Assembly: GCA_030550175.1 (NCBI GenBank)
Contig: JAUQPW010000005.1
Coordinates: forward strand, 23,873 to 87,872
Source: a bacterium
GTDB lineage: Bacteria > Moduliflexota > Moduliflexia > Moduliflexales > JAUQPW01
DNA: 64,000 nt
Direction: 5' to 3'
Numbering within the stretch: position 1 is the stretch's first letter; the number at the start of each line of letters is the position of its first letter. This document shows positions 8,638-62,640 of the stretch, piece by piece. The notes beneath the pieces are model-generated. The model saw nothing but the letters and a program-made list of their open reading frames with translations, had not been told where the DNA came from and did no database searches. The position numbers were made by a program, and so were the translations under genes.

Positions 8638-8799
8638 TAGGTGCCAGGATAAGAAAGTTAGCCCCAGCAGGGCAACCCGTTTAACAGGCCGCTCCTCCGG
8701 AGCCTGAAGAAAATTCTGAATGACTGACTCCCCCAACTTGCATGGGGGGCTACCAACTGTTCGCCCCTGACAGGGCTTTTCAGCTTAACCTGGCGCCTA
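8638..8799 (+). mobile_element. MITE family A, copy 1 (158 bp plus TA flanks)
   Basis: TA|GGTGCCAGGATAAG ... CTTAACCTGGCGCC|TA; interior homologous to copies at 16720, 36614 and 62560. Confidence 0.85.
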
Positions 8800-8809
8800 T
8801 GCTCCCCTT

Positions 8810-8837
8810 CCCCTCTCCTGAAGCTTCTGGAGAGGGG
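8810..8837. repeat. CCCCTCTCC/GGAGAGGGG palindromic repeat (AAGCTT loop)
   Basis: 9-bp perfect stem; same family as hairpins at 16679, 16894, 24761, 27511, 36778 and 57059. Confidence 0.8.
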
Positions 8838-8968
8838 AGATGAGGGGGTGAGGCGGGGAACAAGGGGGTGAGGGAAGAATGGGAATCCAGGCCATTCCTG
8901 AGTCCCCCCTTCTTCCCAACTCGGGAAAGGGGTTAGGTTAGAAAAAACCTGCCCCCCTGCTATACGAT

Positions 8969-11900
8969 TTATCCATGACCTTCCCAGATTGCCAGGGTTT
9001 CTTCCTGCAGGGATCGAACCTTGTCCACCATGTCCCTCAGCCTCTGATTATCAGGTTCGTACTGAAGGGCATTCTGATAGATGTGCATCGCTTCTCGATC
9101 TATGCGTTGATGTTTCAGACAACTTCGACTTAAGATCTGATAAACAAGTTTATTACGATGGCCCAGACGATACAGGCGCTTACAGATGGTCACCATCGCC
9201 TGCTCTTTGCTTAGATGATTTTCCCATATCTTATATTCTGATTCATCGGCTTTTAAATAAGCCTCCAGCAAAATGCTGAGAAGTTCCACATTATCAGGTT
9301 GAAATTCCAATGCCCTTTCATAGGCCCAGATGGCTCGTGGACCAGTCATTCTTCTCTGAAGGTAATAGTTAGCCAGAAGTAAGGCAGGGCCTCGCAGTTC
9401 TGGATCCAGGGAAAGGGCTTTATGATGGACCCAGAAAGCCCTGGCGTGAAAACGACCTGTTTTAAGATAAAGGGCACTTAACCGGGGAAAAATCCACACT
9501 TTCTTGGGATTCTTGTTCAGGAGTCGCTCATAAACCCGGATGACCTTGTCCCAGGCTCCCAAAGAGGCATAGAAGCGAATTTTAAGGCTCGAAGGTCTTA
9601 AGGAAAGAAGTATTCGGGTTGTCCCTAAAGCATTCCAGCACTCCATCAGCTTATTTCGAGATCGCTCTTTCCATTCGGGAATTTTGCGAATCTTCCGGAA
9701 CTCCCGAATAGCTTTACGGATTTTTCCCTGTTCCATATATAACAATCCCAACTGATAATGTGCAGCCGGAGCCTGGCCATCTTCTGTTGTCAGAAAGCGA
9801 TAGACAACTTCCAGTTTATTGAGGATAGTATCCAAGGTATGGGAGGGTACATCCCCTTTCCCGGAAGTCGATGGGGAGTTTTTACTGAACTTATAAGCAA
9901 GGGTTAGATATTCCCTGGCAAGGAGGGGTTTTCCCTTTGCCCAGAACAGGTCTGCTAACTTCAAGTAAAGATCCGTAAAAGAAGGATCTATGGGGATAAT
10001 CTCATGGAGGAAATCAATCCCCATAGCCAAAGTATTTGTTTTCTCACAGGCCTTTAGAAAAAGAGACAAAAATCTGAAATGGTCGGGATTTTCCGGAAGA
10101 AGTACCCAGGCCTTAAGGAGGATGGCATTTAACAGGGTCCGATTATAAGGATCTATTTTCAGCGCGTTTTCAAAAACCCAGAGGGCCCGCTCGCTGATCT
10201 TAAAGTTTCTCAGGTAACGGTAAGAGACCGGAATTATGGCCTCCGGATGGGTAAAGCCTAGAGATAAGGCACGGTCATAAACCTTTGCGGCTTCCTCATC
10301 CTGTCTTCCCATTTTGATATAAAGATCTGCCAGTAGGGGATAAATCCAAAGCTTATCCATCTGTTGGGAGTCCGTGGAAAGATCCTTCTCCAGCATCCTT
10401 TGGTAAATCTCGGCAGCTTTAGCATATCGGCCCAGAGTTTTATAAAAAGCTGCCTCCAGAACTTTGCTCTGGGTAAGTGAATCGAAAGATTTCTTCCTTC
10501 TCAAGATGAGGACAAAGAGAAGGCTTACCAGGATTCCCAGGCCTATGGTGGCATACCGAATCAGATTTCTTCGATATATTTCTTCATCTTTGGCTCTGCG
10601 CATCTGGTGTTCCTGTTGAGCGCGCAGAAGTTGACGTTCTCGTTGCTGATCTTCTTCCCAATATTGAAGGCCGGTTACTACCTCCTGGAGCTTTTGCAAG
10701 GTCTCAGGGTCGGCAGGATCTATCTCCAGGGCTTTTAAGAAGTAAGTTTTCGCGGCATCCCAATCCCATTCTTTTAGCTTTTCTTCCCCTAGACGCAGCA
10801 AAGGCTGGATTTGTTCTTGTTTTTGCCGGGTTATGAAAGAAACGGTCTGGTTCAGCTTTCTACGGGCATCTGAATGATAAGGATCTGCTTCCAGGGCTTT
10901 CTCAAAGAGTTTCCCGGCTTCTGTCCAGTCTTGCCGATCCATGGCAAGAGAGCCCCGGGCATAATAGAGGTTTGCCTGGAGCCTCTGGATTTGAAGGGTA
11001 GAATCGGGAATCGGGAATCGGGAATTTTCCAACTCAGATAGAGCCTGGCTAAAGTAGATAATGGCCTGGTCCCAGTTTTGTTGTTGAAGCTGGGCCTGCC
11101 CCTCCTGATGATTTTGATTTATAATGGCCTGTTGAAGCCGGCGCCGTGCTTCTTCGGTATCCTTCTCCTGAAGGGCCAACACAAAACTTTCCCTAGCTCG
11201 TGCCCATTGTTCCCGGCTAACCTGCTCGAGTCCTGTCTGGTACCATTGGGTATATCGGACCTCTCTCAAGTGGGTACGGGCTTCTTCGGTATCCAAAAAG
11301 CCCAAAGCCAGGGTAAAGCTGGCTCCTGCCTGGGACCACAAGCCCCGATCTGCCTGACTAAGGCCAGCTTCGTACCACTTATGATAACTGGCTTCCTGAA
11401 GTCCTTTTCGAGACTCTTCGGTATCCAGGGTACTTAAGGCAAGATTAAAATTTTCTATGGCATCGTCCCATCGTTTTTGTTTCATCCGCTCCATACCCAA
11501 ATCATACCATCGGTGATGGATCGCTTCCTTAAGCTTTTCTTTGACTTCGTCAACCGGTTTCACTTCCAAAGCCCGCTTTAAATTCTCAATAGCACTCTCC
11601 CATTTCCTTTCGGCCATCCGCATAAGGCCAAGCTTATACCATTTTTGAAAAATACTTTCAGGGTCTACGTTGGTCTTCTCCACCTTATCGGACTTTGCTT
11701 TATCCATTTCCTCCACTTTAGAGGGGGATGGAGGGGAGATTATTTCATCTTTAGGGGGTGGGGTTGCTTGGTCTTTGTTTTTCTCCTCCGGTTCTGTTTT
11801 CGGATTCTGTAAGCCTGGGGTGAGTTCGGTTGAATCAGAGGATCGACCCCTGATCTCTACTTTTTTACCGGGAGAATGTTGGGTGGAAGTCAGAGGTTTT

Positions 11901-14059
11901 TGTTTTTTCGTCTCACCACGTTCGGCTTTCAGCTTACTGAAACCGGCCTCCAGCTCTTTGCTTTTTAGAGTTTCCGGCCAGTCTATTCCCCATATCAGGG
12001 CGGTTCCATCGAAACTCCCGGATATTAACAAAGAGCCATCTTGATTAAAACTCAGACAATTAACCCAACTGGTATGACCTTTTAAGGTTTTGAGGAGTCG
12101 GCCTTCGTTCACGGTCCAGAGGAAGATGATGGAATCTGAACCGGCGCCTGCTAACCGGGATCCGTCCGGACTGAAGGCCAAGCTCCAAATGGGACCCGTA
12201 GGCCCCCGGAGAGTCCTCACTTCCCGGTTATCGGAAACACTCCAGAGGGTTACGGAATTATCCAGATTCCCTATAGCCAAAAGCTCTCCATCTGGACTCA
12301 AGGCCAGAGAGCTCATCCAGTTGCCGGGTCTTGTCAGGGTATGAATAGGCTCTCCCTGTTCTATATCCCAAAATATAACGGTTCCATCAGAGCCTGCCGA
12401 TATTAAAACCTTTCTATCGGGACTAAAAACAAGGGCCAAAACATCCTGGCTTTGGTTCCATAAGGTTTTCACCTTCTCTCCGGCCTGAAGATCCCAAAGG
12501 AAGATCACCTGATCGTCTCCCCCGGATGCCAAAAAAGCGTCGTCCGGGCTGAAAGCAAGTCTTAGAACAGAACCCCGGTGTCCCTCCAATACCCGCTGTT
12601 TCGCGCCACTTTGGGCATCCCAGAGGATAATCTGTTTATCCTCCCCACCTGAAGCCAGCAGGGTACCTTCTCGGTTAAAGGCAACGGTTCTTACAGCACC
12701 CAGATGGCCCTGTAGGGAAGAACGGGAGAGTTCAGAGTTACGTGGGCCTTCATCTTTTTCTTCTAGTTTTTTATTCTTCTTCCCTATCTGGATGAGGGGG
12801 GCCAGGTTCCATAGCTCTAACGTCCCGTTATCGCCTGCCAGGGCCAGAGTATCCTGGCTTATAGCCGAGGACCAAAGGGGAGAGGTATGATCCCATACCA
12901 CCGTAGGGGTAGAGTGGGCCACATCTCCATTTTGGAGATCCCATCGGACGAGCATATTTTCAGAACTGCTTGCGAGCAGGAAATGACCATCTGGGTTGAA
13001 AGCTACCGACCAGATATGATGGGCCGGACTCTGGAGGGTTTTCGATGCAGCGGCAGGTTCACGACCCCATTGGGAAATACTCCAAAGTCGCACGGTTCCA
13101 TCAAAACTTCCAGAAGCTAAGAAAGTTCCGTCAGGATTAAAAGCAACCGATTTCACGGCATCTTGATGATCTCGGATCACCTGGATCTTTTCCCCTTTTT
13201 TAATATCCCATAAAATCACGCTGGCATCATCGCTTCCAGAGGCTAACAAAGATCCCTGCGGGTTAAAAGCCAGGGACTGAACGGCATCTTGATGGCCCGA
13301 CAGAATTTTGTAGGAAAGTTGCCGGTCATCGGCTACGGCAGGTCTCAAATCGGTCAAAGCTTTCAGATCCCATAAAATCACCTGATGATCTGAACCACCG
13401 GAAGCCAGCAAAGTATGGTCCGGGTTAAAAGCCACCGATAGTACATGACCTCGATGACCCCGGAGTGTTCTGAGGGGTGAGGCCTGTTTAACTCCCGCTT
13501 TTAAATTCCAGAGAATAACCGTCTCATCATAGCTTCCAGAAGCCAGTAAAGTTCCATCCTTACTAAAGGCAAGAGCCGTAACCCAATTCTGATGACCGTG
13601 AAGGGTTGCTAATCTCTCTCCGGTTGCGGTTTTCCAAAGAATAATGGCTTTATCATATCCTCCAGAAGCTAAAATGGATCCATCGGGGCTAAAAGCGAGG
13701 GATCCAATGGGTCCAGTATGCCCCTGTAGCGGCATGCCTAATCGCATCTTAACTTCTGACAAAGTAGCCGGATCCCTTAATTCTATTCCTATGGATGTCG
13801 CTACGGCAACAGACTTACCATCCGGTGCATATTGGATGGTACTGATCCATCCTTTACCTAACCGTTGTAATAACCCGTCATCTGCCCTCTGTGGATCGTT
13901 ATCTGTAGTTTGGCGTTTATAATCTGCAGGGACATTTCCCGCCAGAACCTGGGCGTTAAAATAGAAGGAGACCTTAAACCCTTCTCTACCTAGGATCCCC
14001 ATTAAAAGGAGAATCCAGACACCCATCAAGATCTTTATGAATTTGAAAGAAACCCGCAT
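8969..14059 (-). CDS. Giant exported WD40 (about 14 blades)-linker-TPR-TM-TPR protein
   Basis: Signal/anchor MRVSFKFIKILMGVWILLLMGILG; 14 GH..S(L/V)AF.PDG..LASG..D....LW repeats; K/E/P-rich linker; 44-aa TPR-like repeats; TM YATIGLGILVSLLFVLIL followed by RRKK; C-terminal TPRs. Start moved from 14116. Confidence 0.85.
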   Translation of the reverse strand: MRVSFKFIKILMGVWILLLMGILGREGFKVSFYFNAQVLAGNVPADYKRQTTDNDPQRADDGLLQRLGKGWISTIQYAPDGKSVAVATSIGIELRDPATLSEVKMRLGMPLQGHTGPIGSLAFSPDGSILASGGYDKAIILWKTATGERLATLHGHQNWVTALAFSKDGTLLASGSYDETVILWNLKAGVKQASPLRTLRGHRGHVLSVAFNPDHTLLASGGSDHQVILWDLKALTDLRPAVADDRQLSYKILSGHQDAVQSLAFNPQGSLLASGSDDASVILWDIKKGEKIQVIRDHQDAVKSVAFNPDGTFLASGSFDGTVRLWSISQWGREPAAASKTLQSPAHHIWSVAFNPDGHFLLASSSENMLVRWDLQNGDVAHSTPTVVWDHTSPLWSSAISQDTLALAGDNGTLELWNLAPLIQIGKKNKKLEEKDEGPRNSELSRSSLQGHLGAVRTVAFNREGTLLASGGEDKQIILWDAQSGAKQRVLEGHRGSVLRLAFSPDDAFLASGGDDQVIFLWDLQAGEKVKTLWNQSQDVLALVFSPDRKVLISAGSDGTVIFWDIEQGEPIHTLTRPGNWMSSLALSPDGELLAIGNLDNSVTLWSVSDNREVRTLRGPTGPIWSLAFSPDGSRLAGAGSDSIIFLWTVNEGRLLKTLKGHTSWVNCLSFNQDGSLLISGSFDGTALIWGIDWPETLKSKELEAGFSKLKAERGETKKQKPLTSTQHSPGKKVEIRGRSSDSTELTPGLQNPKTEPEEKNKDQATPPPKDEIISPPSPSKVEEMDKAKSDKVEKTNVDPESIFQKWYKLGLMRMAERKWESAIENLKRALEVKPVDEVKEKLKEAIHHRWYDLGMERMKQKRWDDAIENFNLALSTLDTEESRKGLQEASYHKWYEAGLSQADRGLWSQAGASFTLALGFLDTEEARTHLREVRYTQWYQTGLEQVSREQWARARESFVLALQEKDTEEARRRLQQAIINQNHQEGQAQLQQQNWDQAIIYFSQALSELENSRFPIPDSTLQIQRLQANLYYARGSLAMDRQDWTEAGKLFEKALEADPYHSDARRKLNQTVSFITRQKQEQIQPLLRLGEEKLKEWDWDAAKTYFLKALEIDPADPETLQKLQEVVTGLQYWEEDQQRERQLLRAQQEHQMRRAKDEEIYRRNLIRYATIGLGILVSLLFVLILRRKKSFDSLTQSKVLEAAFYKTLGRYAKAAEIYQRMLEKDLSTDSQQMDKLWIYPLLADLYIKMGRQDEEAAKVYDRALSLGFTHPEAIIPVSYRYLRNFKISERALWVFENALKIDPYNRTLLNAILLKAWVLLPENPDHFRFLSLFLKACEKTNTLAMGIDFLHEIIPIDPSFTDLYLKLADLFWAKGKPLLAREYLTLAYKFSKNSPSTSGKGDVPSHTLDTILNKLEVVYRFLTTEDGQAPAAHYQLGLLYMEQGKIRKAIREFRKIRKIPEWKERSRNKLMECWNALGTTRILLSLRPSSLKIRFYASLGAWDKVIRVYERLLNKNPKKVWIFPRLSALYLKTGRFHARAFWVHHKALSLDPELRGPALLLANYYLQRRMTGPRAIWAYERALEFQPDNVELLSILLEAYLKADESEYKIWENHLSKEQAMVTICKRLYRLGHRNKLVYQILSRSCLKHQRIDREAMHIYQNALQYEPDNQRLRDMVDKVRSLQEETLAIWEGHG
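11001..11026. repeat. Heptamer tandem (GAATCGG)x3 inside the WD40/TPR coding sequence
   Basis: GAATCGGGAATCGGGAATCGGGAATT, encoding SRFPIPDS on the minus strand. Confidence 0.85.
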
Positions 14060-14127
14060 CTGGTTTTTGTTCTCTGTTATCCTTGTCCTCTGTCCTTCCT
14101 GCAGGAGGTATAACAATGGACAATAGA

Positions 14128-14988
14128 TTAAAGAGAATATCGAGCTTCCCAGGCTCGAACTTCTGGGAATCCTATGAGTTCATCCAATTCCTTAAAGCTG
14201 ATCATTTCTTCAACCAGCCCTTTCGTGGTGCCTTTTTCTTTTAGAACGGTGAGAGCTCTTTTCATGGCTGTGAGGGAGGCTAAGAGGAGGGTAATAGGAT
14301 AGGCAACCAACTTGAATCCGAAGGATTGTAATTCCTGGTTGGAGATCAAAGGGGTTTTTCCTCCTTCAACCATATTGGCCATGGTGGGGACTTTAAAAGA
14401 TCCTCCGGCCCGTTTCAATTCCTCTAACGTGGTAGGGGATTCGACAAAAATAATATCGGCTCCCGCCTTCTCATAGAGTTGTCCCCGGTAAATAGCATCC
14501 TCAATCCCGGTTACGGTAACGGCATCTGTTCGGGCAATGATCAGAAAGTCGTCGCTTTGTCTTGAGTTTACAGCCGCTTCTACCTTTAAGGCCATTTCCT
14601 TTGCATCGATGAGGCGTTTGCCGGGGGTATGCCCGCATTTTTTAGGTATTTCTTGATCTTCGATTTGAATGGCCTGAGCCCCTGCCCATTCATATTCCTG
14701 AACCGTTCGGCGTACATTAATTACATTCCCAAACCCGGTATCTCCATCGGCCACCACGGGAATATTTACCGACCTGGCCAGATTGTGGACCCGTTCCACC
14801 ATTTCTGCAAAGGAGATCAATCCGGCATCAGGAAGGCCCAGGTGCGACGCCGTATGGCCATACCCCGAGAGGTAAACAGCTTCAAATCCCGCCTGTTCGA
14901 TGACCTTACCGGAAACCATATCAAAGGAAGCCGGAACCACTAAAATTTGTTCCCGGCGTAGAAGCTCTCTTAAAGTAGCTTTTCTCAT
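14128..14988 (-). CDS. Isocitrate lyase/PEP mutase family lyase (PrpB/2,3-dimethylmalate lyase-like)
   Basis: YLSG, DGDTGFG, QIEDQEIPKKCGH, IIARTDA, IFVE, ANMVEGGKTP. Likely start MRKATLREL at 14988. Confidence 0.9.
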   Translation of the reverse strand: MRKATLRELLRREQILVVPASFDMVSGKVIEQAGFEAVYLSGYGHTASHLGLPDAGLISFAEMVERVHNLARSVNIPVVADGDTGFGNVINVRRTVQEYEWAGAQAIQIEDQEIPKKCGHTPGKRLIDAKEMALKVEAAVNSRQSDDFLIIARTDAVTVTGIEDAIYRGQLYEKAGADIIFVESPTTLEELKRAGGSFKVPTMANMVEGGKTPLISNQELQSFGFKLVAYPITLLLASLTAMKRALTVLKEKGTTKGLVEEMISFKELDELIGFPEVRAWEARYSL

Positions 14989-15076
14989 AGCCTTTCCCCT
15001 TTTCTTTCTCCTAAAACCCAATAGGGACTCCCTCTATAAGAAGACTTTCTCAAGTCGAGAAGGATACTTTAAACAG

Positions 15077-15178
15077 GTCCTCGCCACCGGCGATAGGAGC
15101 GAAGCCATCTCCTTCCCTGTGTAAAAGGGTTTCATCCCCTTCGCTGTGGGCTTCGACTTCCATCGCGGGGGCGAGGAC
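15077..15178. repeat. Structured ~100-nt palindromic element, family C copy 1
   Basis: Nested stems GTCCTCGCC/GGCGAGGAC, GCGAT/ATCGC, CGAAGCC/GGCTTCG; homologous to 60470-60577 in opposite orientation. Confidence 0.75.
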
Positions 15179-15363
15179 AGATTCTTTATCACTTAAAAGG
15201 TATAAAACCGAATTCAGCAAGGAAGTATATTTATTTTTACCGATTTGTAAAGCATCTTTTATAAGAAATTTATGAAGTTTGAGAATTTTTATTGCTTTTT
15301 TTCCCGAAATCTACTTTAATAAGAGAATAACCGTTTATCCTTTAACTATCATCCGGAGAGGAT

Positions 15364-16455: not shown

Positions 16456-16593
16456 TCCTTTGCAAGGCAAGGACCAACGGGCAGGGACTCATCCCCTTTA
16501 CGTATACTATACTGTTCCGGCTCCACTGCCTGTGGCTTGCTGCTTTTTACCTATTACCTCCTGCTTCTGATACGCTACCCGGATCAACCTTGA
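16456..16593 (+). pseudogene. Possible decayed PilN-like remnant in frame after the pilM stop
   Basis: PilM ends ISFNLFPET, resembling the PilN INLLP motif. Reading through the TGA gives 45 aa with a hydrophobic stretch (GLLLFTYYLLLLI) before a second TGA. Confidence 0.3.
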
Positions 16594-16671
16594 AACTCCA
16601 GGCCATCTTCGAGGAGTTCTGCATCAGAGCCTGTTCTGAGATCTATCATATTCCTCTTTTTATCCATTCAT

Positions 16672-16715
16672 CCCTACACCCTTCTCCCGAAGCTTCAGGA
16701 GAGGGGTCGTGGGGG
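16672..16715. repeat. CCCTC-type hairpin (CCCGAAGCTTCAGG loop)
   Basis: CCCTTCTCC-CGAAGCTTCA-GGAGAGGGG; abuts MITE A copy 2. Confidence 0.75.
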
Positions 16716-16717
16716 CC

Positions 16718-16880
16718 TACGCGCCAGGATAAGAAGGTTAGCCCCGGCGGGGCAACCTGTTTCACAAGCCGCTGCTACGGAGCTTGAAGAAAATTCTGAA
16801 TGACTGAAACCCCCGACTTGCGTTGGGGGCTACCAACCGTTCACCCCTGACGGGGCTTTTTATCCTTATCCTGGCGTTTA
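16718..16880 (+). mobile_element. MITE family A, copy 2 (159 bp plus TA flanks)
   Basis: TA|CGCGCCAGGATAAG ... CTTATCCTGGCGTT|TA; colinear with copy 1 along its whole length. Confidence 0.85.
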
Positions 16881-16893
16881 TGCCCCCACCCCT

Positions 16894-16917
16894 TCCCTCC
16901 CCGTCCACGGGGAGGGA
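16894..16917. repeat. CCCTC-type hairpin
   Basis: TCCCTCCCCGT-CC-ACGGGGAGGGA, perfect 11-bp stem. Confidence 0.75.
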
Positions 16918-16947
16918 GAAGGAGGGAGGGGGTGAGGGAGCATAATT

Positions 16948-19659: not shown

Positions 19660-19836
19660 GATATTTCTCCTTTCGCTCCTTGGGGGATTTTTTAGACTAA
19701 GAATTAGACATAAACCCACCTGATTTACGGATATTGAACGTCGTTTTGTTAGATATTACAATTTGAGGAAAAGTCAAAGTGAAAATTAACAATTATAAAA
19801 ATTTTTTTAAAAAATCTGATCCTAATGAATTAAAGC

Positions 19837-19865
19837 TTGACAGGAAAGTGACTCCAGGCTATCCT
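19837..19865 (+). promoter_or_regulatory. Sigma70-type promoter for the YkgJ-carbamoyltransferase operon
   Basis: TTGACA-17 nt-TATCCT. Confidence 0.6.
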
Positions 19866-20147: not shown

Positions 20148-20180
20148 TTCCCATACGGGAAGGTAGGATGTGGAATAACT

Positions 20181-35148: not shown

Positions 35149-36519
35149 TCAATTGTTTAATTTTCTGAATCGGGAGAGACTTTCGGTGGCATAACTGACC
35201 AGCAAGAATTTACTCAGTTGATCCGGTTCTACATAGTAGACGTTTCCTCGATTGATCTCGGCCATACGATTGGCAAAATCGGTTAAATATTTGTCCTGGG
35301 CCAGCATGATAATGTGTAGTCGGACCCCCTTCATGGTGCATAATTCGACTTCCCGAAGCGTTTTTCTTGCGATAATATCATCAACCGGACGGTAAGGATT
35401 TTTATATAATTTTCCATCCAGGCTGCATATGGTGGGATGTCCATCGGTAACCATGATAATTTGTTTAAGATGGTAAGGATATTTCTGGAGAAGCTTTCTG
35501 GAAAGGCGTAAAGCTGCTTCCATATTGGTCCAGAGACGTTCCTGAATTAGAGAGTAAAGCTGAGAGGGGTGAATCAACTCTGCCGTGCTATCCATTCCAA
35601 CTACCCAAATCTGATCTCCCGGATATAAGCTGGTAATCAATTGAAACAATGCCAGGCTGGTCTTTCTGACCGCAACGATACGGTTATCATGGGACATACT
35701 TTCACTTCGATCTACAATAAGGACGGTCGCCATGTTGGATTGATGTTGCAAGAGGTTGATTCTAAAATCTTCTGCATTCAATCGGACGGGCACCTGCATA
35801 TTACGTCGGACTCCGTTAAGGAGAGATTGAACGATATTAACCCGAAAAAGATCTCCATATTCATAGGGTTTCGTTTCATGGGCTTTGATGAGTCCCATAC
35901 CTTTTTCAGGGGTCTCATGTAAACCGAATCCGGCCTTTTTTAAATCTTGAAAAACGGTTCTGAGTAAGCATTGTCCCATCTCCTGCAAAGCTTTAGAGGT
36001 CAGTCGGCCTTTTTCATCTATGTACTGCATCTTTTTCAGTTCTTGTAAAGCCCTTGATTTAATGGCCTGATCAGCCCATGCTTCCTCCCCTTTATCCGGA
36101 ACAGGTTTGTAAAAATCGGATTCCACCTCTTCAGAGGGATAAAGGTCTTTTTGTCGGGTTCCTTTCTTCGAAATAAAGCTTCCGCCGCCGGGCTTTCCCG
36201 ATTCATCGGCCAGGGTTGCAGTCTGTGATCCTGCCTCTAACCCTTCCCCACCGGCTTCGCCTTCCTCTGAAAGGCCTTTTGAAGAGTATAACTTTTCTTG
36301 AATTCTACGGGAAAAGACATCTTTAAGCCGGATCTGACGATTTCCACTATAGATTCCTTTGTCCTGTTGCCGGTCCTCTTCCAACATTCTATCCAGGATT
36401 TCTTCCGGAGAATATCCATCGGCAGCTTTATCTAAAAAACGGGCTTTAAATTCCTCCAAGAGAGAAGCAGTATCCGGAGAATGGGAAGAGCCGGAATAAT
36501 ATTCAAACGTAGGGGACAT
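35149..36519 (-). CDS. VWA-domain protein (chelatase/AAA-partner type)
   Basis: MIDAS residues DRSES, T (WTNMEAAL) and VTDG; N-terminal acidic linker; T.PYEYGD...N. Confidence 0.8.
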   Translation of the reverse strand: MSPTFEYYSGSSHSPDTASLLEEFKARFLDKAADGYSPEEILDRMLEEDRQQDKGIYSGNRQIRLKDVFSRRIQEKLYSSKGLSEEGEAGGEGLEAGSQTATLADESGKPGGGSFISKKGTRQKDLYPSEEVESDFYKPVPDKGEEAWADQAIKSRALQELKKMQYIDEKGRLTSKALQEMGQCLLRTVFQDLKKAGFGLHETPEKGMGLIKAHETKPYEYGDLFRVNIVQSLLNGVRRNMQVPVRLNAEDFRINLLQHQSNMATVLIVDRSESMSHDNRIVAVRKTSLALFQLITSLYPGDQIWVVGMDSTAELIHPSQLYSLIQERLWTNMEAALRLSRKLLQKYPYHLKQIIMVTDGHPTICSLDGKLYKNPYRPVDDIIARKTLREVELCTMKGVRLHIIMLAQDKYLTDFANRMAEINRGNVYYVEPDQLSKFLLVSYATESLSRFRKLNN

Positions 36520-36611
36520 GATGAAACAGGATAGATTTTTAGTTTAGATGCGAAGGGAGTAGACTCCCTTCTCTCACCTTCCCCTGGTTGTGGCCAAGGA
36601 AGGCCAGGAAA

Positions 36612-36764
36612 TAGACGCCAGGATAAGCTGAAAAGCCCCGTCAGGGATGAACCGTTGGTAGTCCCAGACACAAGTCGGGGGATTCAGAATTTTTTTAAGC
36701 TCTGTAGGAGCGGCCTGTTAAACAGGTTGCTCCGCTGGGGCTAACCTTCTTATCCTGGCGCGTA
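36612..36764 (-). mobile_element. MITE family A, copy 3 (149 bp, inverted, ~10-bp internal deletion)
   Basis: TA|GACGCCAGGATAAG ... CTTATCCTGGCGCG|TA; interior is the reverse complement of copies 1 and 2. Confidence 0.85.
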
Positions 36765-36777
36765 GGGCCCCACTCTC

Positions 36778-51802: not shown

Positions 51803-51828
51803 AAAGTTGGGGTAAAGGAAGAAAATCT

Positions 51829-54219: not shown

Positions 54220-54287
54220 GGCAGGGAAACTCTAAAGCGAATAATTTTAACGGAAAATAGATGATTCCAAAAGGTAGAAAGGAAGAA

Positions 54288-56840: not shown

Positions 56841-57058
56841 CCGCTTTCAGTTGCTTTTCAGATAATTTCGGTCTACCCTTTCCTTTTCCCTACCCTCCTC
56901 CAGGGAAATCCCGCCTTCCCTATCCTTTCCGTATGAAAACGGTTGCTTAAAGGTAAGGTAACCCTGCAGGACTGCCTTATACCGATTCTGATTGAACAGG
57001 TCGTATCCCCTCTACTCCCTCTAAAGAGGAGCGACTTGCGTAGCCCCTACGTAGGCAA

Positions 57059-57102
57059 CCCCACCTTAACCCTCCCCGCATGCAGGGAGGGTTAAGGTGG
57101 GG
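57059..57102. repeat. Perfect 18-bp CCCTC-family hairpin
   Basis: CCCCACCTTAACCCTCCC-CGCATGCA-GGGAGGGTTAAGGTGGGG. Confidence 0.85.
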
Positions 57103-57340
57103 CTGTCTCTACTTTACCCCCCATTTCCATACCGACCTGGTATTGAGGGGATAGTTTCCCTGAGGAAGGGTATCGGGTCCCCTCGCCACCGGGAAAGGAA
57201 AGAATTCTGCAGAGATCATTTCAGGAAGAATTCTAAAACCTAAAACAATCGTATTTTGTATAAGTTCTTATAATAAAGAGACTTAATGAAATATAAAAAA
57301 TTTTAAAAAAGAAAAATTTTAGGTAAAATTTATTTTTTCG

Positions 57341-57369
57341 TTGACACTTTCCCGGAAGGATCATAATCT
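57341..57369 (+). promoter_or_regulatory. Sigma70-type promoter
   Basis: TTGACA-17 nt-TAATCT. The ORF-track start at 57341 is this -35 box, so it is not the real start. Confidence 0.55.
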
Positions 57370-57424
57370 TTTCCTTACTTGTTCCTGTACCTTCATGAAT
57401 ATGGATAACCGGGGATACTTTTTT

Positions 57425-58447
57425 ATGAAATCTTTTCTCTTTTCTCTAAAAAGACCCGTCCAGCATATTTTGCTCTTGCTGGGTAGTATCGTAGTCTTTT
57501 TGCTGGGAGTAGAAGGCATCTTCCGACTTCTGGGAATTGCCTGTGTGGAACCTTACTCCGACCGGGACTGGTATAACCAGTACGTTCAGCTCAATTCCAG
57601 AGGGTTTCGAGACTATGAACATACCGAGGAAAAGCCACCCGGAACCTTTCGAATCCTGGGAATAGGAGATTCCTACACTTTCGGGGTTCGGGTGAATTTT
57701 GAGGATATTTATCTGACCCGGTTAGAACGCATGTTGAACGAGCGGTATCCTTCGAGGCATTACGAAGTGATCAACATGGGGGTACCCGGTTATGGTACTA
57801 TGGAAGAACTGCGGCTACTCCGGAAGAAGGGTCTTCTCTATCAGCCCGATCTTGTGATTGTGGGATATGTCTTAAACGACGCGGAGCATCCCCTGTTGGA
57901 ACATCTTTATAAGAAAAAGGTTCGGGCTCTGGTGGCGGCAGAACCTGATTACTCTAAGAAATTGAAGGAAATCTCTCAATTTTATCGCTACGTTTATTTT
58001 CTCTATTTCTGGGGAATCAAAGCAAGGGATCTAGACCGCGATGGTTATTTAGCATCCCTCTATTCAGCAGAGACCAATCCTTATTTACATGATGTCAAAA
58101 AAGCTCTGGCTCAAATGATCCAGTTGGTTAAACAACAAAATGGTCAGGTACTGGTCGTTTTATTCCCTATTTTTAGCCCGGATCCCCGGGAAGAAGAGCG
58201 ATTTGCCCAGGCCCGGCGCATTGTTCAAACCACCTGCCAACATCAAGGGGCCTATTTCCTGGATATGTATCCCCTTTTCCGGGATGCCTTAAAAAGCGGA
58301 AAAGCCAAGCGTTATTGGGCCACACCCTTTGATGCCCACCCCAATAAAGAAGCCCATGCCATCATCGCAGAACAGATTTTTAAAGTCATAGCCGAAGAAA
58401 AACTCATAACAGGCGATGGACAGTGGGCGGTGGACAATGAGCCGTAA
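57425..58447 (+). CDS. Membrane-anchored SGNH hydrolase-fold protein
   Basis: N-terminal TM, NSRGFRD, GIGDSYTFG, NMGVPG, YVLND, FDAHPN. The last ~10 codons come from TGGACAG-type heptamers. Confidence 0.88.
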   Translation: MKSFLFSLKRPVQHILLLLGSIVVFLLGVEGIFRLLGIACVEPYSDRDWYNQYVQLNSRGFRDYEHTEEKPPGTFRILGIGDSYTFGVRVNFEDIYLTRLERMLNERYPSRHYEVINMGVPGYGTMEELRLLRKKGLLYQPDLVIVGYVLNDAEHPLLEHLYKKKVRALVAAEPDYSKKLKEISQFYRYVYFLYFWGIKARDLDRDGYLASLYSAETNPYLHDVKKALAQMIQLVKQQNGQVLVVLFPIFSPDPREEERFAQARRIVQTTCQHQGAYFLDMYPLFRDALKSGKAKRYWATPFDAHPNKEAHAIIAEQIFKVIAEEKLITGDGQWAVDNEP

Positions 58448-58514
58448 ATAGCAGCTAAAAGATGGCAACTTTTTCACCTATCACCTGCCCTCATCCTTCT
58501 GTTTGGTTAAAAGG

Positions 58515-60257
58515 TTAAACGAAAAGACTCAGGGTAACCGGCTGAATAGGGACGGCCAGAGGCTTCAGCATATTGGCTAAAGGCTCGTACAAATCTTTAA
58601 ATTCAATTCCAAACCCCTGGGAAATAACTGCATTGGATACATTAAACATGGAATTTTTCTGAGCATCGTAATTCTCTTTACATCCATCGGTAGATAAAAT
58701 AGCAGGCTTACCGTAGGCCTTTAATCGATCCAGGGCACTCTGATTGAGGATTTTGAAATCTCCCGTGGTCCATTCGTTGGCATGGCTGGTTGTGATGTCT
58801 ACACCGGGATACCTGAAGATTTGATCTGAGATCGGAACATTCACATCGGTACTGGCAGATACGAGAACCGAGGGATTTTCAGACTTGATTACCTCCACAA
58901 CCCAATTATGCCAGCTGGCCCCACCCCATCCGTTATACTCATTGCAGACTTCAAAGATAATATTTTTCAGGTCCCGGAGGGAATTGACCATATATCGCAG
59001 GTATTTCTCCTGGAGAGCTTTAACCGTTAGATTTGGATTGTAAAATTCGGGTCGCCCATCTTTAGGATTCGAAATGGGTGCTTTCAAAGCGTTGTTGGGA
59101 TGCCAGGGATGCCTTGTCCAGGTCATTCCATCCCCAAAGTCGTAGAGGGCTACATTATCAAACAGATCCAACTGAACGATAATTCCGCGGCTGCCAAAGG
59201 TACTCACCAGGTTCCTGAGATTGTCCATGTAAGTTGAATCAAACTGATTGAGATCAAATTTGCTCCCCACCCTCTTCCAGGGAAAGATAGAACTGGTCCA
59301 GGTATCTATACAAAAGGTCCGGGTAAGATTGGCATTATATTTGACCAGTAAATCGGCGAATTCCTGACAACTTTTTCCTTTATAGGGATTCCAGGGATGG
59401 ATTTGCATGTTGGTCCACATATACGTAGACCAACCGGTCACCGTTAATTTTTGCGAACCGTTATAAAGTGAAGCCCCCTGGGTCTTAAGATCATAAATAT
59501 AGGTGCTCCGTGTAGATGGACGAACCATCTTCAGGAGTTCCTCATCCGAGGGAAGATCCCTGTTTACGTCGGTGATAATGGCTGGGTCAATGATACAAAC
59601 CAGTTTGATGGCCATATAGGTATAACCCATATAAAGCAGTCGAAATTCCAGTTGGGATTCGGTTGAAGGAGGCCGAAAGGGAAGGACCAGACGGATATGT
59701 TTCTGGGCCTCGGCAAAGTCTTTTCGGGTCATGACCTGTTTGGCAATGACCCGACTGGCATCTTGGGTTACATCTAAGGTACAGACATAGGCATCATCAA
59801 AGGTGTTGTTATCCACCGTGATACTGAACACAGCTGCTAAATCCTGAACGGGAAAGTTCTTTTCGTACTGACCGAAAATCAAAAATCCGGGAGTTGTGGT
59901 TGCACGAACGGCCCGTCCGTTTGCATCTATGAAAGCATTGGGATGGTTAGACGGATATTGAAGGGCATCGTAAACCCTTAAAACTCCTTTGGGAAGATTC
60001 AATCCGGAAGTAACCTCACGCTTTTTAATAACTTTATTCCCTGCCTCTCTCTTGGAAGCTGTAACCGATGGGGAAGTTTTACGAGGCGACGATCCAGAAA
60101 CGGACCGGGCAACCGGCTTAACCTCTTTTTTACGTGGATCGGATTTCCCCAGTTTTACCCCCTGTGGGACCTTTGAAGAGGCCTTTATTTCTTTCTTGGA
60201 CTTTAGCATAGCAGCAGATGAAACAGTTTTCTGGTTCTTACTGATTTTAGATTTCAT
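58515..60257 (-). CDS. Basic low-complexity tail + beta-sandwich + GH5/clan-A-like TIM barrel
   Basis: K/S-rich first ~85 aa, no signal peptide; RGIIVQLDLFD, NIIFEVCNEY, KPAILSTDG. Confidence 0.65.
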   Translation of the reverse strand: MKSKISKNQKTVSSAAMLKSKKEIKASSKVPQGVKLGKSDPRKKEVKPVARSVSGSSPRKTSPSVTASKREAGNKVIKKREVTSGLNLPKGVLRVYDALQYPSNHPNAFIDANGRAVRATTTPGFLIFGQYEKNFPVQDLAAVFSITVDNNTFDDAYVCTLDVTQDASRVIAKQVMTRKDFAEAQKHIRLVLPFRPPSTESQLEFRLLYMGYTYMAIKLVCIIDPAIITDVNRDLPSDEELLKMVRPSTRSTYIYDLKTQGASLYNGSQKLTVTGWSTYMWTNMQIHPWNPYKGKSCQEFADLLVKYNANLTRTFCIDTWTSSIFPWKRVGSKFDLNQFDSTYMDNLRNLVSTFGSRGIIVQLDLFDNVALYDFGDGMTWTRHPWHPNNALKAPISNPKDGRPEFYNPNLTVKALQEKYLRYMVNSLRDLKNIIFEVCNEYNGWGGASWHNWVVEVIKSENPSVLVSASTDVNVPISDQIFRYPGVDITTSHANEWTTGDFKILNQSALDRLKAYGKPAILSTDGCKENYDAQKNSMFNVSNAVISQGFGIEFKDLYEPLANMLKPLAVPIQPVTLSLFV

Positions 60258-60469
60258 GGAGAAAACCTCCTATCTGGATAGGCATTCAACCCTTCCCTAA
60301 GTACCTCTGTTTACATTCAGAATCCGAAGAACAAAGGGATTATTACTAACGTTAGTTAATTAGTCTGTCATGAATTAACAAAAGTCAAGAAAAAAATGAG
60401 TAATTTTATAAAAAATTTTTACCTGAGCCGAAGCAGGAAGGAGGATCTTTTCAGGCAGACCTGGGGCTT

Positions 60470-60577
60470 ATCCCTGCTCCTGGCAATGGGAAGTGAAGCC
60501 CGGGACAGAGCGAGGAGGACAAAACCATCTCCCTCGCCGTACAAGATGGCTTCGCTCCTATTGCCGTCGGCGAGGAT
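60470..60577. repeat. Structured palindromic element, family C copy 2
   Basis: Reverse complement begins GATCCTCGCCGACGGCAATAGGAGCGAAGCCATCT, versus GGTCCTCGCCACCGGCGATAGGAGCGAAGCCATCT at 15076. Confidence 0.75.
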
Positions 60578-60683
60578 CTGCTTGACTTGAAAAGTAAAAA
60601 CATCTCTTTTTTAGGAGTTCTTCAGGGAACCTTTTGGAGAATTTAGAGGTCTTATCCTTTATAAGGAAGGTAAGGTTAGAACA

Positions 60684-62264
60684 ATGTCTATTCCGGATAG
60701 GTCGAATCTGCAGTCTGATTCCTTCTACCGACGGCGCGTGCTTGCCTGGTCGTGGTATGATTGGGCTGATCATGCCTATATTACCACCATCGCTTCGACT
60801 TTTTTCCCACCTTATTTTGTTACCATCGCCGCTCCGGCTTTTATGGTCACAGGCCCAGTTGTGAATGAAGAAATGGCTAAAGCCATAGCTCGAAATACCG
60901 CTTCTAACCTTTATGCCTTCACCGTATCGGTTTCCCTCCTGGTAGCCGCCCTCCTTGCTCCCCTGGTAGGTACCTATGCCGACATTACCGGACAAAGGAA
61001 GCGTCTTTTGATTATAACCACCCTGGTGGGTGGCGGGTTAGCATCTGCGATGTTTGCGATAACCACAGATTTGTGGTACTTAGGATTGATATTATACCTT
61101 ACAACGCAGGTCATCGTAAACATTGCATTGGGTTTAAACAGTAGCCTACTTCCCCATATAGCCCGTCCGGATGACATGAATCGGGCTTCCAGTTTGGGAT
61201 ATGCCATGGGGTACATGGGGGGTGGTCTATCCCTGGCCCTCTGTACGGCACTTTTTTTGTTTTCAGATCATTGGGGAATCAGCCAGGGATTAGCCATACG
61301 TACGGCATTTCTATCTGTAGGTATCTGGTGGATCATATTTATGATTCCCATCACGCGCGGTGTACCTGAACCAGCGGCTGCACCTTTAATCTCCGGTAAT
61401 AAAGGTCATCCTTTCCGCGATACCCTGATTCGGCTCTCCCATACTTTGCGTGACATCCGACATTATCGTGAGCTCTTCAAGATGCTGATTGCATTCTGGT
61501 TCTATATGGAAGGGATCGGTGCGATTATTCTGTTGGCAACCGCATATGGTGCAGCCCTGGGACTTGACACCGCCGTTCTTATTAGTACCTTGCTACTCAC
61601 GCAATTTGTGGCCTTTCCCTATGCGCTAATGTACGGGCGTATTCCCGATCCGGCCAGTAAATGGCGGAATACCTTTGTTTCAATACTGATCTGGACAGGT
61701 ATTACCTTCCCCCTCATGGGTATCTATGTAAATAGGAAAGATGTTGTTCCCATTCCTTTGACCTTTGCACTCATGATGGGTAATCAAGCCCTGGGGGCCT
61801 TATTTTCTGTTTTGGTCGGCCGCCATCTATGGGCAGGCTTTACCCAACGGCTGGATACAAAACGGGCCGTTATCCTGGGACTGACCATCTATATCCTTAT
61901 CCCGGTTTGGGGTTTTTTTCTTCACAACCCGGCTGAATTCTTTATGCTGGGCTGGCTGGTAGGCACCTTGCAGGGTGGTATTCAGGCCCTTAGTCGAACC
62001 ATTTATACCCGCCTGTCTCCACGTTCCAAGTCCGGTGAGTTTTTTGGATTGTACAGTTTGAGTGAGAAATTTGCCGGGATTTTAGGACCTTTACTCTACA
62101 GCATCGTTGGGGAATTAACCCACAACCCCCGTGCAAGTGTGATTTCCATCTCGATTTTCTTCTTGATAGGTAGTTATCTGTTATGGCAGGTAGACGAGAT
62201 TCAAGGTGCCCAAATCGCCGCCGCTGAAGAGGCTTCCATTGAAGCGACCAGGGCGGCAGATTAG
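60684..62264 (+). CDS. MFS transporter, UMF1/Atg22-like, with a ~70-aa hydrophobic insertion
   Basis: AWSWYDWADHAY.T, APLVGTYAD, SSLGYAMGYMGG, GGIQALSR, SGEFFGLY, GILGPLL. Confidence 0.88.
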   Translation: MSIPDRSNLQSDSFYRRRVLAWSWYDWADHAYITTIASTFFPPYFVTIAAPAFMVTGPVVNEEMAKAIARNTASNLYAFTVSVSLLVAALLAPLVGTYADITGQRKRLLIITTLVGGGLASAMFAITTDLWYLGLILYLTTQVIVNIALGLNSSLLPHIARPDDMNRASSLGYAMGYMGGGLSLALCTALFLFSDHWGISQGLAIRTAFLSVGIWWIIFMIPITRGVPEPAAAPLISGNKGHPFRDTLIRLSHTLRDIRHYRELFKMLIAFWFYMEGIGAIILLATAYGAALGLDTAVLISTLLLTQFVAFPYALMYGRIPDPASKWRNTFVSILIWTGITFPLMGIYVNRKDVVPIPLTFALMMGNQALGALFSVLVGRHLWAGFTQRLDTKRAVILGLTIYILIPVWGFFLHNPAEFFMLGWLVGTLQGGIQALSRTIYTRLSPRSKSGEFFGLYSLSEKFAGILGPLLYSIVGELTHNPRASVISISIFFLIGSYLLWQVDEIQGAQIAAAEEASIEATRAAD

Positions 62265-62404
62265 GGATAAAGATCTGACTTCAGGGGGTACCGGGTTTAT
62301 CCTTATACCAGGTCCGTATTAGAAGGTGGTATAAAGGATTCCCCCAACCCCCCGTCAACGGCTTTCAGGGGCAGATTTTTTCTCACCTGACCCCTTCACT
62401 CCCA

Positions 62405-62541
62405 TACGTGCCAGGATAGGAGTGAGGTCCATTCCCCTTCCGGACCTTCCCCGCTTTGCAGGGGGAGGAACTTTGAAGCGAAGTTCCCTCCCCTGTGAAA
62501 CGGGGGAGGGACCGGGTGGGGACACCTTAACCTGGCACCTA
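62405..62541. mobile_element. MITE with family A ends but different (CCCTC-hairpin) cargo
   Basis: TA|CGTGCCAGGATAG ... CTTAACCTGGCACC|TA enclosing G/C-rich hairpins unrelated to the copy 1-3 interior. Confidence 0.75.
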
Positions 62542-62557
62542 GGGGGTTAGGGGGACT

Positions 62558-62640
62558 TAGGCGCCAGGATAAAAAGGTTAGCCCCGGCGGGGCAACCTGT
62601 TTAACAGGACGTTCCTACGGAGCTTGAAAAAATTCTGAAT
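62558..62640 (+). mobile_element. MITE family A, truncated copy 4 (left half)
   Basis: TA|GGCGCCAGGATAAAAAGGTTAGCCCCGGCGGGGCAACCTGTTTAACAGG...AATTCTGAAT, after which homology ends. Confidence 0.8.

What the first reader, a model, noticed from the sequence alone, without database searches (positions are those of the whole stretch)
8638..62640. TA-flanked MITE family with 14-bp TIRs and interchangeable cargo
Five elements (8640-8797, 16720-16878, 36614-36762 inverted, 62407-62539, 62560-62640 truncated) share ends of consensus GGYGCCAGGATAAG, and every intact end is flanked by TA, the hallmark of IS630/Tc1-mariner-type insertion. Four carry REP-like hairpins (GCCCC-N3-GGGGC, GCTCC-N3-GGAGC, and GTAG followed by a palindrome as in GTAG-type REPs). 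The 62407 copy has the same ends around unrelated CCCTC hairpins. This suggests a DDE-mobilised shell that captures hairpin repeats of other families. No transposase is in the window.
Basis: partly seen in the sequence, partly recalled or inferred. Interest (0 to 1): 0.7.

Follow-up and report, generated by a model that had tools for sequence, protein, structure and literature searches.

The report
IS4-type miniature transposons, not IS630
The five repeats are real small non-coding "jumping DNA" relics, but their TA is part of the transposon's own end sequence. They belong to the well-known IS4 (IS186/IS231-like) group, not the TA-inserting IS630/mariner group, so this is an ordinary kind of element in a poorly studied bacterium.

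Summary
Four complete elements (8636-8801, 16716-16882, 36610-36766 inverted, 62403-62543) and one truncated element (62556-62640) share inverted ends, and TA sits beside all nine ends.

The IS630 interpretation does not hold.
- The true end is an 18-bp inverted repeat, CATA-N-GCGCCAGGATAAG. TA is positions 3-4 of it.
- A metagenome scan found about 20 full-length 1.44-kb insertion sequences with exactly these ends. They encode a 435-aa IS4-family DDE transposase with a YREK motif, 29% identical to E. coli IS421/IS186.
- IS421 (CATAAGCGCTAACTTAAG) and an Acinetobacter IS (CATACGCGCCAACTTAAG) have near-identical ends.
- Just outside CATA/TATG, 19 of 52 elements carry an 11-bp G/C-ended direct repeat (SSS-N5-SSS), against 0.3 expected. 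This is the real target duplication.
- Window copy 8636-8801 keeps it at 9/11.

A relative about 93% identical has two of the four loci occupied and two without the elements. Neither of those two junctions contains TA.

"Same ends, different interior" is true and general: at least 17 interior types among 30 small elements. No capture mechanism is shown.

The preference for G/C-run targets explains why copies sit beside CCCTC-type hairpins. No transposase lies in the window.

The parts
8636..8801 (+). Complete 166-bp MITE, main interior type. Ends are CATAGGTGCCAGGATAAG ... CTTAACCTGGCGCCTATG.
   Evidence: The orthologous copy is present in the ~93%-identical relative.
8625..8635 (.). Left copy of the 11-bp target-site duplication, CCCCCCTTTCC.
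   Evidence: Matches 8802-8812 at 9 of 11 positions. Its form fits the family's SSS-N5-SSS duplication.
8802..8812 (.). Right copy of the 11-bp target-site duplication, CTCCCCTTCCC.
16716..16882 (+). Complete 167-bp MITE, main type. Ends are CCTACGCGCCAGGATAAG ... CTTATCCTGGCGTTTATG. No recognisable duplication; the flanks GTGGGGG / CCCCCAC are inverted, not direct.
   Evidence: The relative keeps only the right 83 nt with the same right flank.
36610..36766 (-). Complete 157-bp MITE, main type, inverted. It lacks 9 bp of the centre. No recognisable duplication.
   Evidence: Absent from the relative's orthologous spacer.
62403..62543 (+). 141-bp element with the same ends (CATACGTGCCAGGATAGG ... 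CTTAACCTGGCACCTAGG) and an unrelated interior of G/C hairpins. Positions 62444-62491 belong to a hairpin repeat present at about 25-40 times organism depth.
   Evidence: Absent from the relative.
62556..62640 (+). Truncated main-type copy. Only the left 85 nt remain, starting CTTAGGCGCCAGGATAAA. It is cut where homology to the relative resumes.
8810..8838 (.). AAGCTT-centred G/C hairpin (CCCCTCTCC-TGAAGCTTCT-GGAGAGGGG) next to the MITE. This is the kind of G/C-run sequence the family targets.
   Evidence: Depth is about 20-30 times the organism's.
16679..16706 (.). Second copy of the AAGCTT-centred hairpin, left of the MITE.
   Evidence: Depth is about 90-140 times the organism's. Deleted together with the MITE's left half in the relative.
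16893..16918 (.). CCCTCCCC-N6-GGGGAGGG hairpin right of the MITE.

Best explanation
The five elements are miniature inverted-repeat transposable elements (MITEs) of the IS4 family, of the IS231/IS186(IS421) end type.

- Each is a 140-170-bp non-coding unit bounded by an 18-bp inverted repeat, CATA-N-GCGCCAGGATAAG.
- That repeat is the binding and cleavage site of a roughly 435-aa DDE transposase with a Y(2)R(3)E(6)K motif. The transposase is encoded by full-length 1.44-kb relatives with identical ends.
- Supplied in trans, the transposase cuts at the terminal CA. It then integrates the element with an 11-bp staggered cut into targets that have G/C triplets five bases apart (SSS-N5-SSS). This produces an 11-bp direct repeat.
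- The TA is positions 3-4 of the element's own end, not duplicated target.
- The target preference explains why copies lie beside or inside G/C-run hairpins and G-rich short tandem repeats.
- The window copies are old: 85-90% alike, with decayed ends and duplications, and half of them shared with a ~93%-identical relative. They are being eroded by deletion and nested hairpin insertions.

Shown: the ends, the full-length IS and its family, the 11-bp duplication and its composition, and presence/absence between relatives.

Inferred: cut-and-paste chemistry (by analogy with IS10/IS50), mobilisation in trans, and that a cognate transposase was once present in this lineage.
For: (1): 120 metagenome loci carry the end. 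About 20 hold a 1443-1446-bp IS with the same 18-bp ends and a single ORF.

(2): that ORF hits Pfam DDE_Tnp_1 (E = 7e-17) and NCBIfam transpos_IS4_1 (107 bits).

(3): the transposase is 29% identical to E. coli IS421 transposase (E = 1e-33) and 38% identical to an Acinetobacter towneri plasmid IS. The ADRGY and YRCRWQVEIAIKRWK motifs are aligned.

(4): the IS421 ends are CATAAGCGCTAACTTAAG and the A. towneri ends are CATACGCGCCAACTTAAG. IS421 matches ours at 13 of 17 specified positions.

(5) (PMC2266710, Table 1): the IS231 subgroup has ends CAT-------AA--TAA and direct repeats of 10-12 bp. Our end fits CAT, A11 and TAA15-17.

(6): 19 of 52 elements have at least 9/11 direct-repeat matches immediately outside CATA/TATG, against 0.3 (maximum 3) in shuffled pairings. 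A few others have 10-, 12- or 13-bp repeats.

(7): duplications are G/C at positions 1-3 (17-18 of 19) and 9-11 (15-17 of 19).

(8) (PMC5009759): IS186 targets GGGG(N6/N7)CCCC.

(9): terminal CATA is found in 9 of 10 ends from a scan that did not specify it.

(10): flank consensus sequences of other copies in the source and related metagenomes end in ...CATA and start with TATG.

(11): two window loci are shared with the relative and two are not.
Against: - Only one of the four complete window copies (8636-8801) keeps a recognisable 11-bp duplication (9/11). The other three have none.
- No clean empty site was obtained. At both polymorphic loci the relative differs by more than the element.
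- No cognate transposase was found in the window, in about 45 kb of the relative, or at 80% or more nucleotide identity to the soil-type IS in two source runs.
- The transposase scores 107 bits against NCBIfam transpos_IS4_1, just under its cut-off of 115.
- MITE interiors share only 18-36 terminal nucleotides with the full-length ISs, so descent from this particular IS is not shown.
Confidence: 0.88

Rival explanations
1. One reading: these are IS630/Tc1-mariner-type MITEs that insert at TA and duplicate it. The 14-bp repeat starts after the TA.
For: TA is adjacent to all nine window ends. The flanks often read CA-TA...TA-TG, which could be read as a palindromic CATATG target.
Against: - The bases outside TA are themselves conserved: CA in 22 of 25 unselected ends, and CATA in 9 of 10 in the unbiased scan.
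- Those bases are identical to the first bases of IS421 and of an Acinetobacter IS.
- Locus-specific 11-bp direct repeats lie outside CATA/TATG.
- The only transposase found between such ends is IS4-type, Pfam DDE_Tnp_1.
- The relative's junctions at the two loci that lack the elements contain no TA.
Confidence: 0.02
2. REP/BIME-like hairpin repeats spread by a RAYT (Y1, IS200/IS605-like) transposase. On this reading the shared ends are incidental.
For: The interiors contain short G/C hairpins and a GTAG/CTAC motif. The elements are intergenic and abundant.
Against: - The elements have long terminal inverted repeats and 11-bp target duplications. These are hallmarks of DDE elements, not of REP/RAYT.
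- The same ends bound a DDE-transposase IS.
- No Y1 transposase was seen among the scanned window ORFs or the relative's orthologues.
- Mutations break the internal hairpins rather than compensating for each other.
Confidence: 0.02
3. The conserved unit is primarily a functional structured RNA or terminator module selected in 3' intergenic regions. Its transposon-like ends are secondary.
For: - All four loci lie downstream of a gene's stop codon.
- A weak terminator-like hairpin plus T-run sits at the right end.
- Two copies have been retained in a relative since about 7% divergence.
Against: - 0 of 42 predicted pairs show compensatory change, and several are broken.
- There was no Rfam match.
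- The terminator count is no higher than in shuffled sequence.
- Orthologous copies suffer a 124-bp deletion and a 60-bp insertion.
- Orthologous copies diverge about as fast as the paralogous copies do from one another.
Confidence: 0.05
4. 'Shell' model: IS4-type ends are an active cassette system that captures hairpin repeats of other families as cargo.
For: - 30 small elements with these ends fall into at least 17 unrelated interior types. They share only 18-36 nt with the IS.
- The 62403-62543 interior is built from a hairpin that is itself 25-40 times more abundant than single-copy sequence.
- The relative's copy of the 8636 element has gained a 60-bp G/C hairpin inside it.
- IS231 is known to form gene-carrying cassettes, the MICs (PMC2266710).
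Against: - Diverse interiors are normal for MITE superfamilies.
- The one gain actually observed is a nested insertion into an old, probably immobile copy.
- No copy with a captured interior is shown to have transposed afterwards.
- The left part of 62403-62543 is nearly unique (1-3 times depth), so it may be a chimera rather than a mobile subfamily.
Confidence: 0.2

Closest known systems
IS186 / IS421 of Escherichia coli (IS4 family)
   Same: - Terminal inverted repeat beginning CATAAGCGC and ending TAAG, identical to ours at 13 of 17 specified positions.
- Single-ORF DDE_Tnp_1 transposase with a YREK motif, 29% identical over 335 aa.
- Insertion into G/C-run targets, GGGG(N6/7)CCCC (PMC5009759).
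- In the plasmid copy examined, a direct repeat of about 10-11 bp: GG(G)ATCTCTCC / GGATCACTCC.
   Different: - The transposase is 370 aa rather than 435 aa and is only distantly related.
- IS186 is autonomous, whereas the window holds only 140-170-bp non-coding derivatives.
- The target here is looser (SSS-N5-SSS, any G/C) and is duplicated as 11 bp.
IS231 and its MIC231 mobile insertion cassettes (Bacillus cereus group; IS4 family, IS231 subgroup)
   Same: - End signature CAT-------AA--TAA and 10-12-bp direct repeats (PMC2266710 Table 1).
- Transposase-less units bounded by the IS ends, with variable content, moved in trans (references cited in PMC2266710).
- IS231A's GGG(N)5CCC target. This is from my own knowledge (Hallet et al. 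1994) and was not checked here.
   Different: - MIC231 cassettes are larger and carry genes, and are restricted to the B. cereus group.
- The elements here are tiny, non-coding and found in Chloroflexota-like and other phyla.
- The transposase was not compared directly with IS231A.
IS630/Tc1-mariner-derived MITEs
   Same: Small size, terminal inverted repeats, non-coding, intergenic, with TA next to the repeat core.
   Different: TA is part of the element's end. The duplication is 11 bp. The matching autonomous element encodes an IS4-type, not an IS630-type, transposase.
REP/BIME elements with RAYT transposases
   Same: Abundant intergenic G/C hairpins.
   Different: REPs have no long terminal inverted repeats or target duplications. 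No RAYT was seen.

Membership tests
IS4-family (IS231/IS186-type) MITE | Terminal inverted repeats with the subgroup signature 5'-CAT-------AA--TAA | tested here: met
   The ends are CATANGCGCCAGGATAAG, with CAT at 1-3, A at 11 and TAA at 15-17. Position 12 is G rather than A. The signature comes from PMC2266710 Table 1. IS421 and A. towneri ends were read directly.
IS4-family (IS231/IS186-type) MITE | Direct target duplication of about one helix turn (10-12 bp), in the wider family with these ends | tested here: met
   19 of 52 elements have at least 9/11 matches at exactly 11 bp, against 0.3 expected. Further cases have 10, 12 or 13 bp.
IS4-family (IS231/IS186-type) MITE | Direct target duplication of 10-12 bp at the window copies themselves | tested here: inconclusive
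   Copy 8636-8801 has 9/11. The other three complete copies have none. This fits their age: paralogues are 85-90% identical.
IS4-family (IS231/IS186-type) MITE | Autonomous relative with the same ends encoding a single-ORF DDE transposase with D..D..E and Y(2)R(3)E(6)K | tested here: met
   About 20 ISs of 1443-1446 bp were found. The ORF hits Pfam DDE_Tnp_1 at 62 bits against a cut-off of 23. The YRCRWQVEIAIKRWK motif aligns with IS421. NCBIfam transpos_IS4_1 scores 107 bits, below its 115 cut-off.
IS4-family (IS231/IS186-type) MITE | Non-coding and much shorter than the IS | tested here: met
   The elements are 141-167 bp with no ORF.
IS4-family (IS231/IS186-type) MITE | Cognate transposase present in the same genome | not testable with these tools
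None was found in the window or in about 45 kb of the relative. The soil-type IS is not in runs X2/X4 at 80% or more identity.
IS4-family (IS231/IS186-type) MITE | Evidence of mobility: presence/absence at orthologous sites | tested here: met
   36610-36766 and the 62403-62640 pair are absent from the ~93%-identical relative. 8636-8801 and 16716-16882 are present there. Neither absence is a clean empty site.
IS630/Tc1-mariner MITE | Duplication of a TA target dinucleotide, with unconserved sequence outside it | tested here: not met
   Sequence outside TA is conserved (CA), 11-bp repeats lie beyond it, and the relative's junctions lack TA.
IS630/Tc1-mariner MITE | IS630-type transposase bounded by matching ends | tested here: not met
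   The transposase between matching ends is Pfam DDE_Tnp_1 / IS4.
REP/RAYT system | Associated Y1 (RAYT) transposase gene, and repeats without terminal inverted repeats or target duplications | tested here: not met
   The elements have terminal inverted repeats and target duplications. No Y1 transposase was found among the scanned window ORFs or the relative's orthologues. A genome-wide RAYT search was not possible.

The most novel reading that the evidence does not exclude
IS231/IS186-type ends may act as a cross-phylum vehicle for G/C-hairpin repeats, in a self-reinforcing loop.
- The transposase targets SSS-N5-SSS sites, which abound in CCCTC/GGGAG-type hairpins and G-rich 7-8-bp tandem repeats.
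- Such hairpins end up inside the elements, as in 62403-62543 and the 60-bp gain in the relative's 8636 copy.
- Elements carrying them would then seed new landing pads wherever they insert.
- This would help explain why these hairpin families and IS4-type MITEs pile up together in the same spacers in many phyla.
Probability: 0.15. Interest if true: 0.5.

Novelty: new member of a known kind. Interest (0 to 1): 0.27.

Why it matters
- It corrects a plausible but wrong classification. A conserved terminal CATA mimics a TA target duplication, a trap for anyone annotating MITEs from sequence alone.
- It links a repeat family of an uncultured Chloroflexota-like (Limnocylindrales-related) hot-spring bacterium to a very abundant, apparently unnamed IS4-family insertion sequence of soil metagenomes. 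More than 1000 protein clusters matched (E ≤ 0.001), and the best 120 are 87-95% identical.
- The 18-bp ends recur with many interiors in MAGs labelled as different phyla.
- The SSS-N5-SSS preference gives a simple explanation for the clustering of these MITEs with G/C-run hairpins and G-rich short tandem repeats in intergenic spacers.
- Beyond that, it is an ordinary mobile-element relic with no sign of a new mechanism.

Tried and rejected
No genome-wide copy census or transposase search of the window's assembly was possible.
- The genome-contig scan with both ends and a 103-133-nt gap did not find the window's own genome. It found five true elements in two other MAGs and one chance hit, L001.
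- The viral-contig scan for the end gave 14 single hits and no inverted pairs. I take these as chance.
- A literature search for the end sequence returned only unrelated primers.
- Rfam gave no match in the window.
- Laying the soil-type IS (L048) on source runs X2/X4 at 80% or more identity placed nothing.
- No empty alleles were found in the four source runs at 8636-8801 or 16716-16882. The joints there have short sides (18-28 nt) and look like paralogous hairpin repeats.
- A structured-RNA reading was rejected: there are no compensatory pairs.
- Strict palindromy of the target was tested and is present in only a subset. Complementarity around the centre of the duplication is not clearly above shifted centres.
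- Descent of MITE interiors from the full-length IS by internal deletion is not supported. Only 18-36 terminal nucleotides are shared.
- Earlier notes call this genome KSB3/Moduliflexota-like. The closest named relative here is labelled Candidatus Limnocylindrales, in Chloroflexota.
Full report
**Observation**

A MAFFT alignment shows three full copies and one 5' fragment of one family, plus a fifth element that shares only the ends.
- The core GCCAGGATAAG, allowing one mismatch, occurs 11 times against 0.94 expected. Nine of these hits are the element ends.
- TA lies three bases outside GCCAGG at all nine ends.
- A profile of the three full copies finds nothing else in the window.
- Rfam finds nothing.

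The window's own genome could not be searched. I worked from public collections, sequencing runs and relatives instead.

**Finding the family outside the window**

A genome-contig scan asked only for the two cores 103-133 nt apart. It missed the window's own genome but returned five 157-bp elements in two MAGs, labelled Acidobacteriota and Clostridia.
- They have the same ends and a quite different interior.
- Although the pattern did not ask for it, 9 of their 10 ends begin CATA.

- About 20 loci carry two inverted ends 1443-1446 bp apart.
- Others carry pairs 103-395 bp apart.

**The autonomous element**

The 1.44-kb units hold a single ORF of about 435-458 codons.
- It matches Pfam DDE_Tnp_1 (E = 7e-17) and NCBIfam transpos_IS4_1. 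The NCBIfam score is 107 bits, just under the 115 cut-off.
- Against annotated plasmids, the best named relatives are 'IS4-like element IS421 family transposase' of E. coli (29% identity over 335 aa) and an Acinetobacter towneri plasmid transposase (38%).
- The alignments line up the ADRGY aspartate box and a perfect Y(2)R(3)E(6)K motif (YRCRWQVEIAIKRWK).

Reading the ends of those known elements directly gives:
- IS421: CATAAGCGCTAACTTAAG
- A. towneri IS: CATACGCGCCAACTTAAG
- Ours: CATANGCGCCAGGATAAG

They fit the IS231-subgroup signature CAT-------AA--TAA, with 10-12-bp direct repeats, tabulated by De Palmenaer et al. 2008 (PMC2266710). The TA is therefore positions 3-4 of the element's own inverted repeat.

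**The real target duplication**

Immediately outside CATA...TATG, many elements have locus-specific 11-bp direct repeats. Examples are GGCCGCTGGGG, GGAAAACACCC, CCCCAGCGGGG, ACCCTCGCCCT and GCCTGACGTCT.
- 19 of 52 elements with both flanks available score at least 9/11 at exactly 11 bp. Shuffled left/right pairings give 0.3 on average and at most 3.
- A few others have repeats of 10, 12 or 13 bp.
- The duplications are G/C at positions 1-3 and 9-11 and mixed in between, i.e. SSS-N5-SSS.
- This resembles the GGGG(N6/N7)CCCC target of IS186 (Lee et al. 2016, PMC5009759). From my own knowledge, it also resembles the GGG(N)5CCC target of IS231A.
- Among ends not selected by the scan pattern, the outermost CA is kept in 22 of 25 and TA in 17 of 25. 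That is the opposite of what a TA target duplication predicts.

**The window copies**

- Copy 8636-8801 retains the duplication at 9/11 (CCCCCCTTTCC / CTCCCCTTCCC). The other three complete copies have none.
- The copies are 85-90% identical to one another, and their ends score 14-16 of 17.
- Flank consensus sequences of other copies in the source metagenome end in ...CATA and begin TATG....
- Summed contig depth puts element parts at roughly 20-100 times the organism's depth. This is a rough copy estimate.

**Relatives and orthologous loci**

Four hot-spring runs hold the window at 99% of sampled words. Other runs hold a relative about 93% identical. Through flanking proteins I fetched that relative's contigs. 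They include an NCBI MAG labelled Candidatus Limnocylindrales, in Chloroflexota.

| Window locus | State in the relative |
|---|---|
| 8636-8801 | Same element with the same left flank, plus a 60-bp G/C-hairpin insertion inside it |
| 16716-16882 | Only the right 83 nt and the same right flank remain; a 124-bp deletion has removed the left half and the adjacent hairpin |
| 36610-36766 | Lacks the element and the neighbouring 58-nt hairpin; the junction reads ...AAGTCCCC\|TTTCCTGGCC |
| 62403-62640 (two elements) | About 237 nt of unrelated DNA instead |

- Neither junction at the two loci lacking the elements contains TA.
- Neither of those loci is a clean empty site.
- The source population shows no empty alleles.
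- Overall the family is old, partly predates the split of these lineages, and is decaying.

**Interiors ('cargo')**

- Thirty small elements with these ends fall into at least 17 interior clusters. They share only 18-36 terminal nucleotides with the full-length ISs.
- The window's main interior was found nowhere else among the 140 scan loci (L001-L140).
- The 62403-62543 interior is built around a hairpin (62444-62491) present at 25-40 times organism depth. Its left 45 nt are nearly unique.
- So 'same ends, different interiors' is correct and general, as in many MITE superfamilies and in the IS231/MIC231 system.
- The only process actually seen is nested insertion and deletion in old copies, not capture followed by spread.
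- The internal hairpins show no compensatory substitutions: 0 of 42 pairs, and several are broken.

**Why the elements sit by CCCTC hairpins**

The SSS-N5-SSS preference is met many times over in CCCTC/GGGAG-type hairpins. It is also met in G-rich 7-8-bp tandem repeats; for example, CCCTGTCACCC arises from a CACCCTGT repeat.
- In several metagenome cases the duplication sits at the hairpin apex. An example is CCTCC-CCCCAGCGGGG-GGAGG.
- The MAG copies lie inside heptamer or octamer arrays.

**Transposase in the window**

None was found.
- tblastn with the IS4-type protein gave E > 4.
- Pfam scans of 18 ORFs, plus the relative's precomputed annotations across most of the region, show housekeeping genes only.
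- The soil-type IS is not in two source runs at 80% or more identity.
- Whether a cognate enzyme exists elsewhere in the genome is unknown.

**Verdict**

This is a new member of a known kind: IS4-family (IS231/IS186-type) MITEs. The TA is part of the end, and the real duplication is 11 bp. The IS630 reading is refuted and the variable-interior observation is confirmed. Interest is modest.

Noticed in passing
L150:16162-16387 (orthologue of window 8636-8801): The relative's copy of this MITE carries a 60-bp insertion (AATTCCCCCCGCATGGGGGGAAAGGGGAGG...GGGGGGCTTCCCTG). It sits exactly in the loop of the internal GCTCC...GGAGC hairpin. This is a G/C-hairpin repeat that has landed inside the MITE since the lineages split.
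   Followed up: partly
L149:~3170-3260 (orthologue of window 16676-16882): The relative has a 124-bp deletion. It removes the AAGCTT-centred hairpin and the left 84 nt of the MITE and leaves a right-end fragment. This shows how truncated copies such as 62556-62640 arise.
   Followed up: partly
L002-L006: One 157-bp MITE subfamily (core hairpin CCGTGGTGCGAAGCCCACGG) occurs in MAGs labelled Acidobacteriota and Clostridia. Each copy sits inside G-rich 7-8-bp tandem repeats (GGGTTCA, GGGCTGA, CACCCTGT). This points either to horizontal spread or to mislabelled bins.
   Followed up: no
window 35149-36519 and its relatives (L143): The closest named relative (proteins 92% identical) is an NCBI MAG labelled Candidatus Limnocylindrales (Chloroflexota). 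More distant homologues are labelled Chloroflexi or Dehalococcoidia. Earlier notes on this genome called it KSB3/Moduliflexota-like.
   Followed up: partly
window 36590-36609: Directly outside the end of the 36610-36766 element lies GGCCAGGAAATAG. It resembles the repeat core GCCAGGATAAG and may be a remnant of another end.
   Followed up: no
window 8810-8838, 16679-16706, 62444-62491: These short G/C hairpins, two of them centred on AAGCTT, are far more abundant in the source metagenome than the MITE itself: up to about 90-140 times organism depth at 16668-16709.
   Followed up: partly
L021-L140; P0001-P0120: The full-length 1.44-kb IS with these ends is extremely common in soil and other metagenomes. 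More than 1000 protein clusters match, and the best 120 are 87-95% identical. Most lie on contigs of 1.4-2 kb, and no source gives the IS a name.
   Followed up: partly
window 3067-4275 (-): A 402-aa ORF with no Pfam match is conserved in the relative (400 aa, at the end of L150).
   Followed up: no
L039 and L046: Some full-length IS copies have an in-frame stop that splits the transposase into 167-aa and 305-aa ORFs. Many full-length copies lack a clear 11-bp duplication, although their flanks are G- or C-runs.
   Followed up: no
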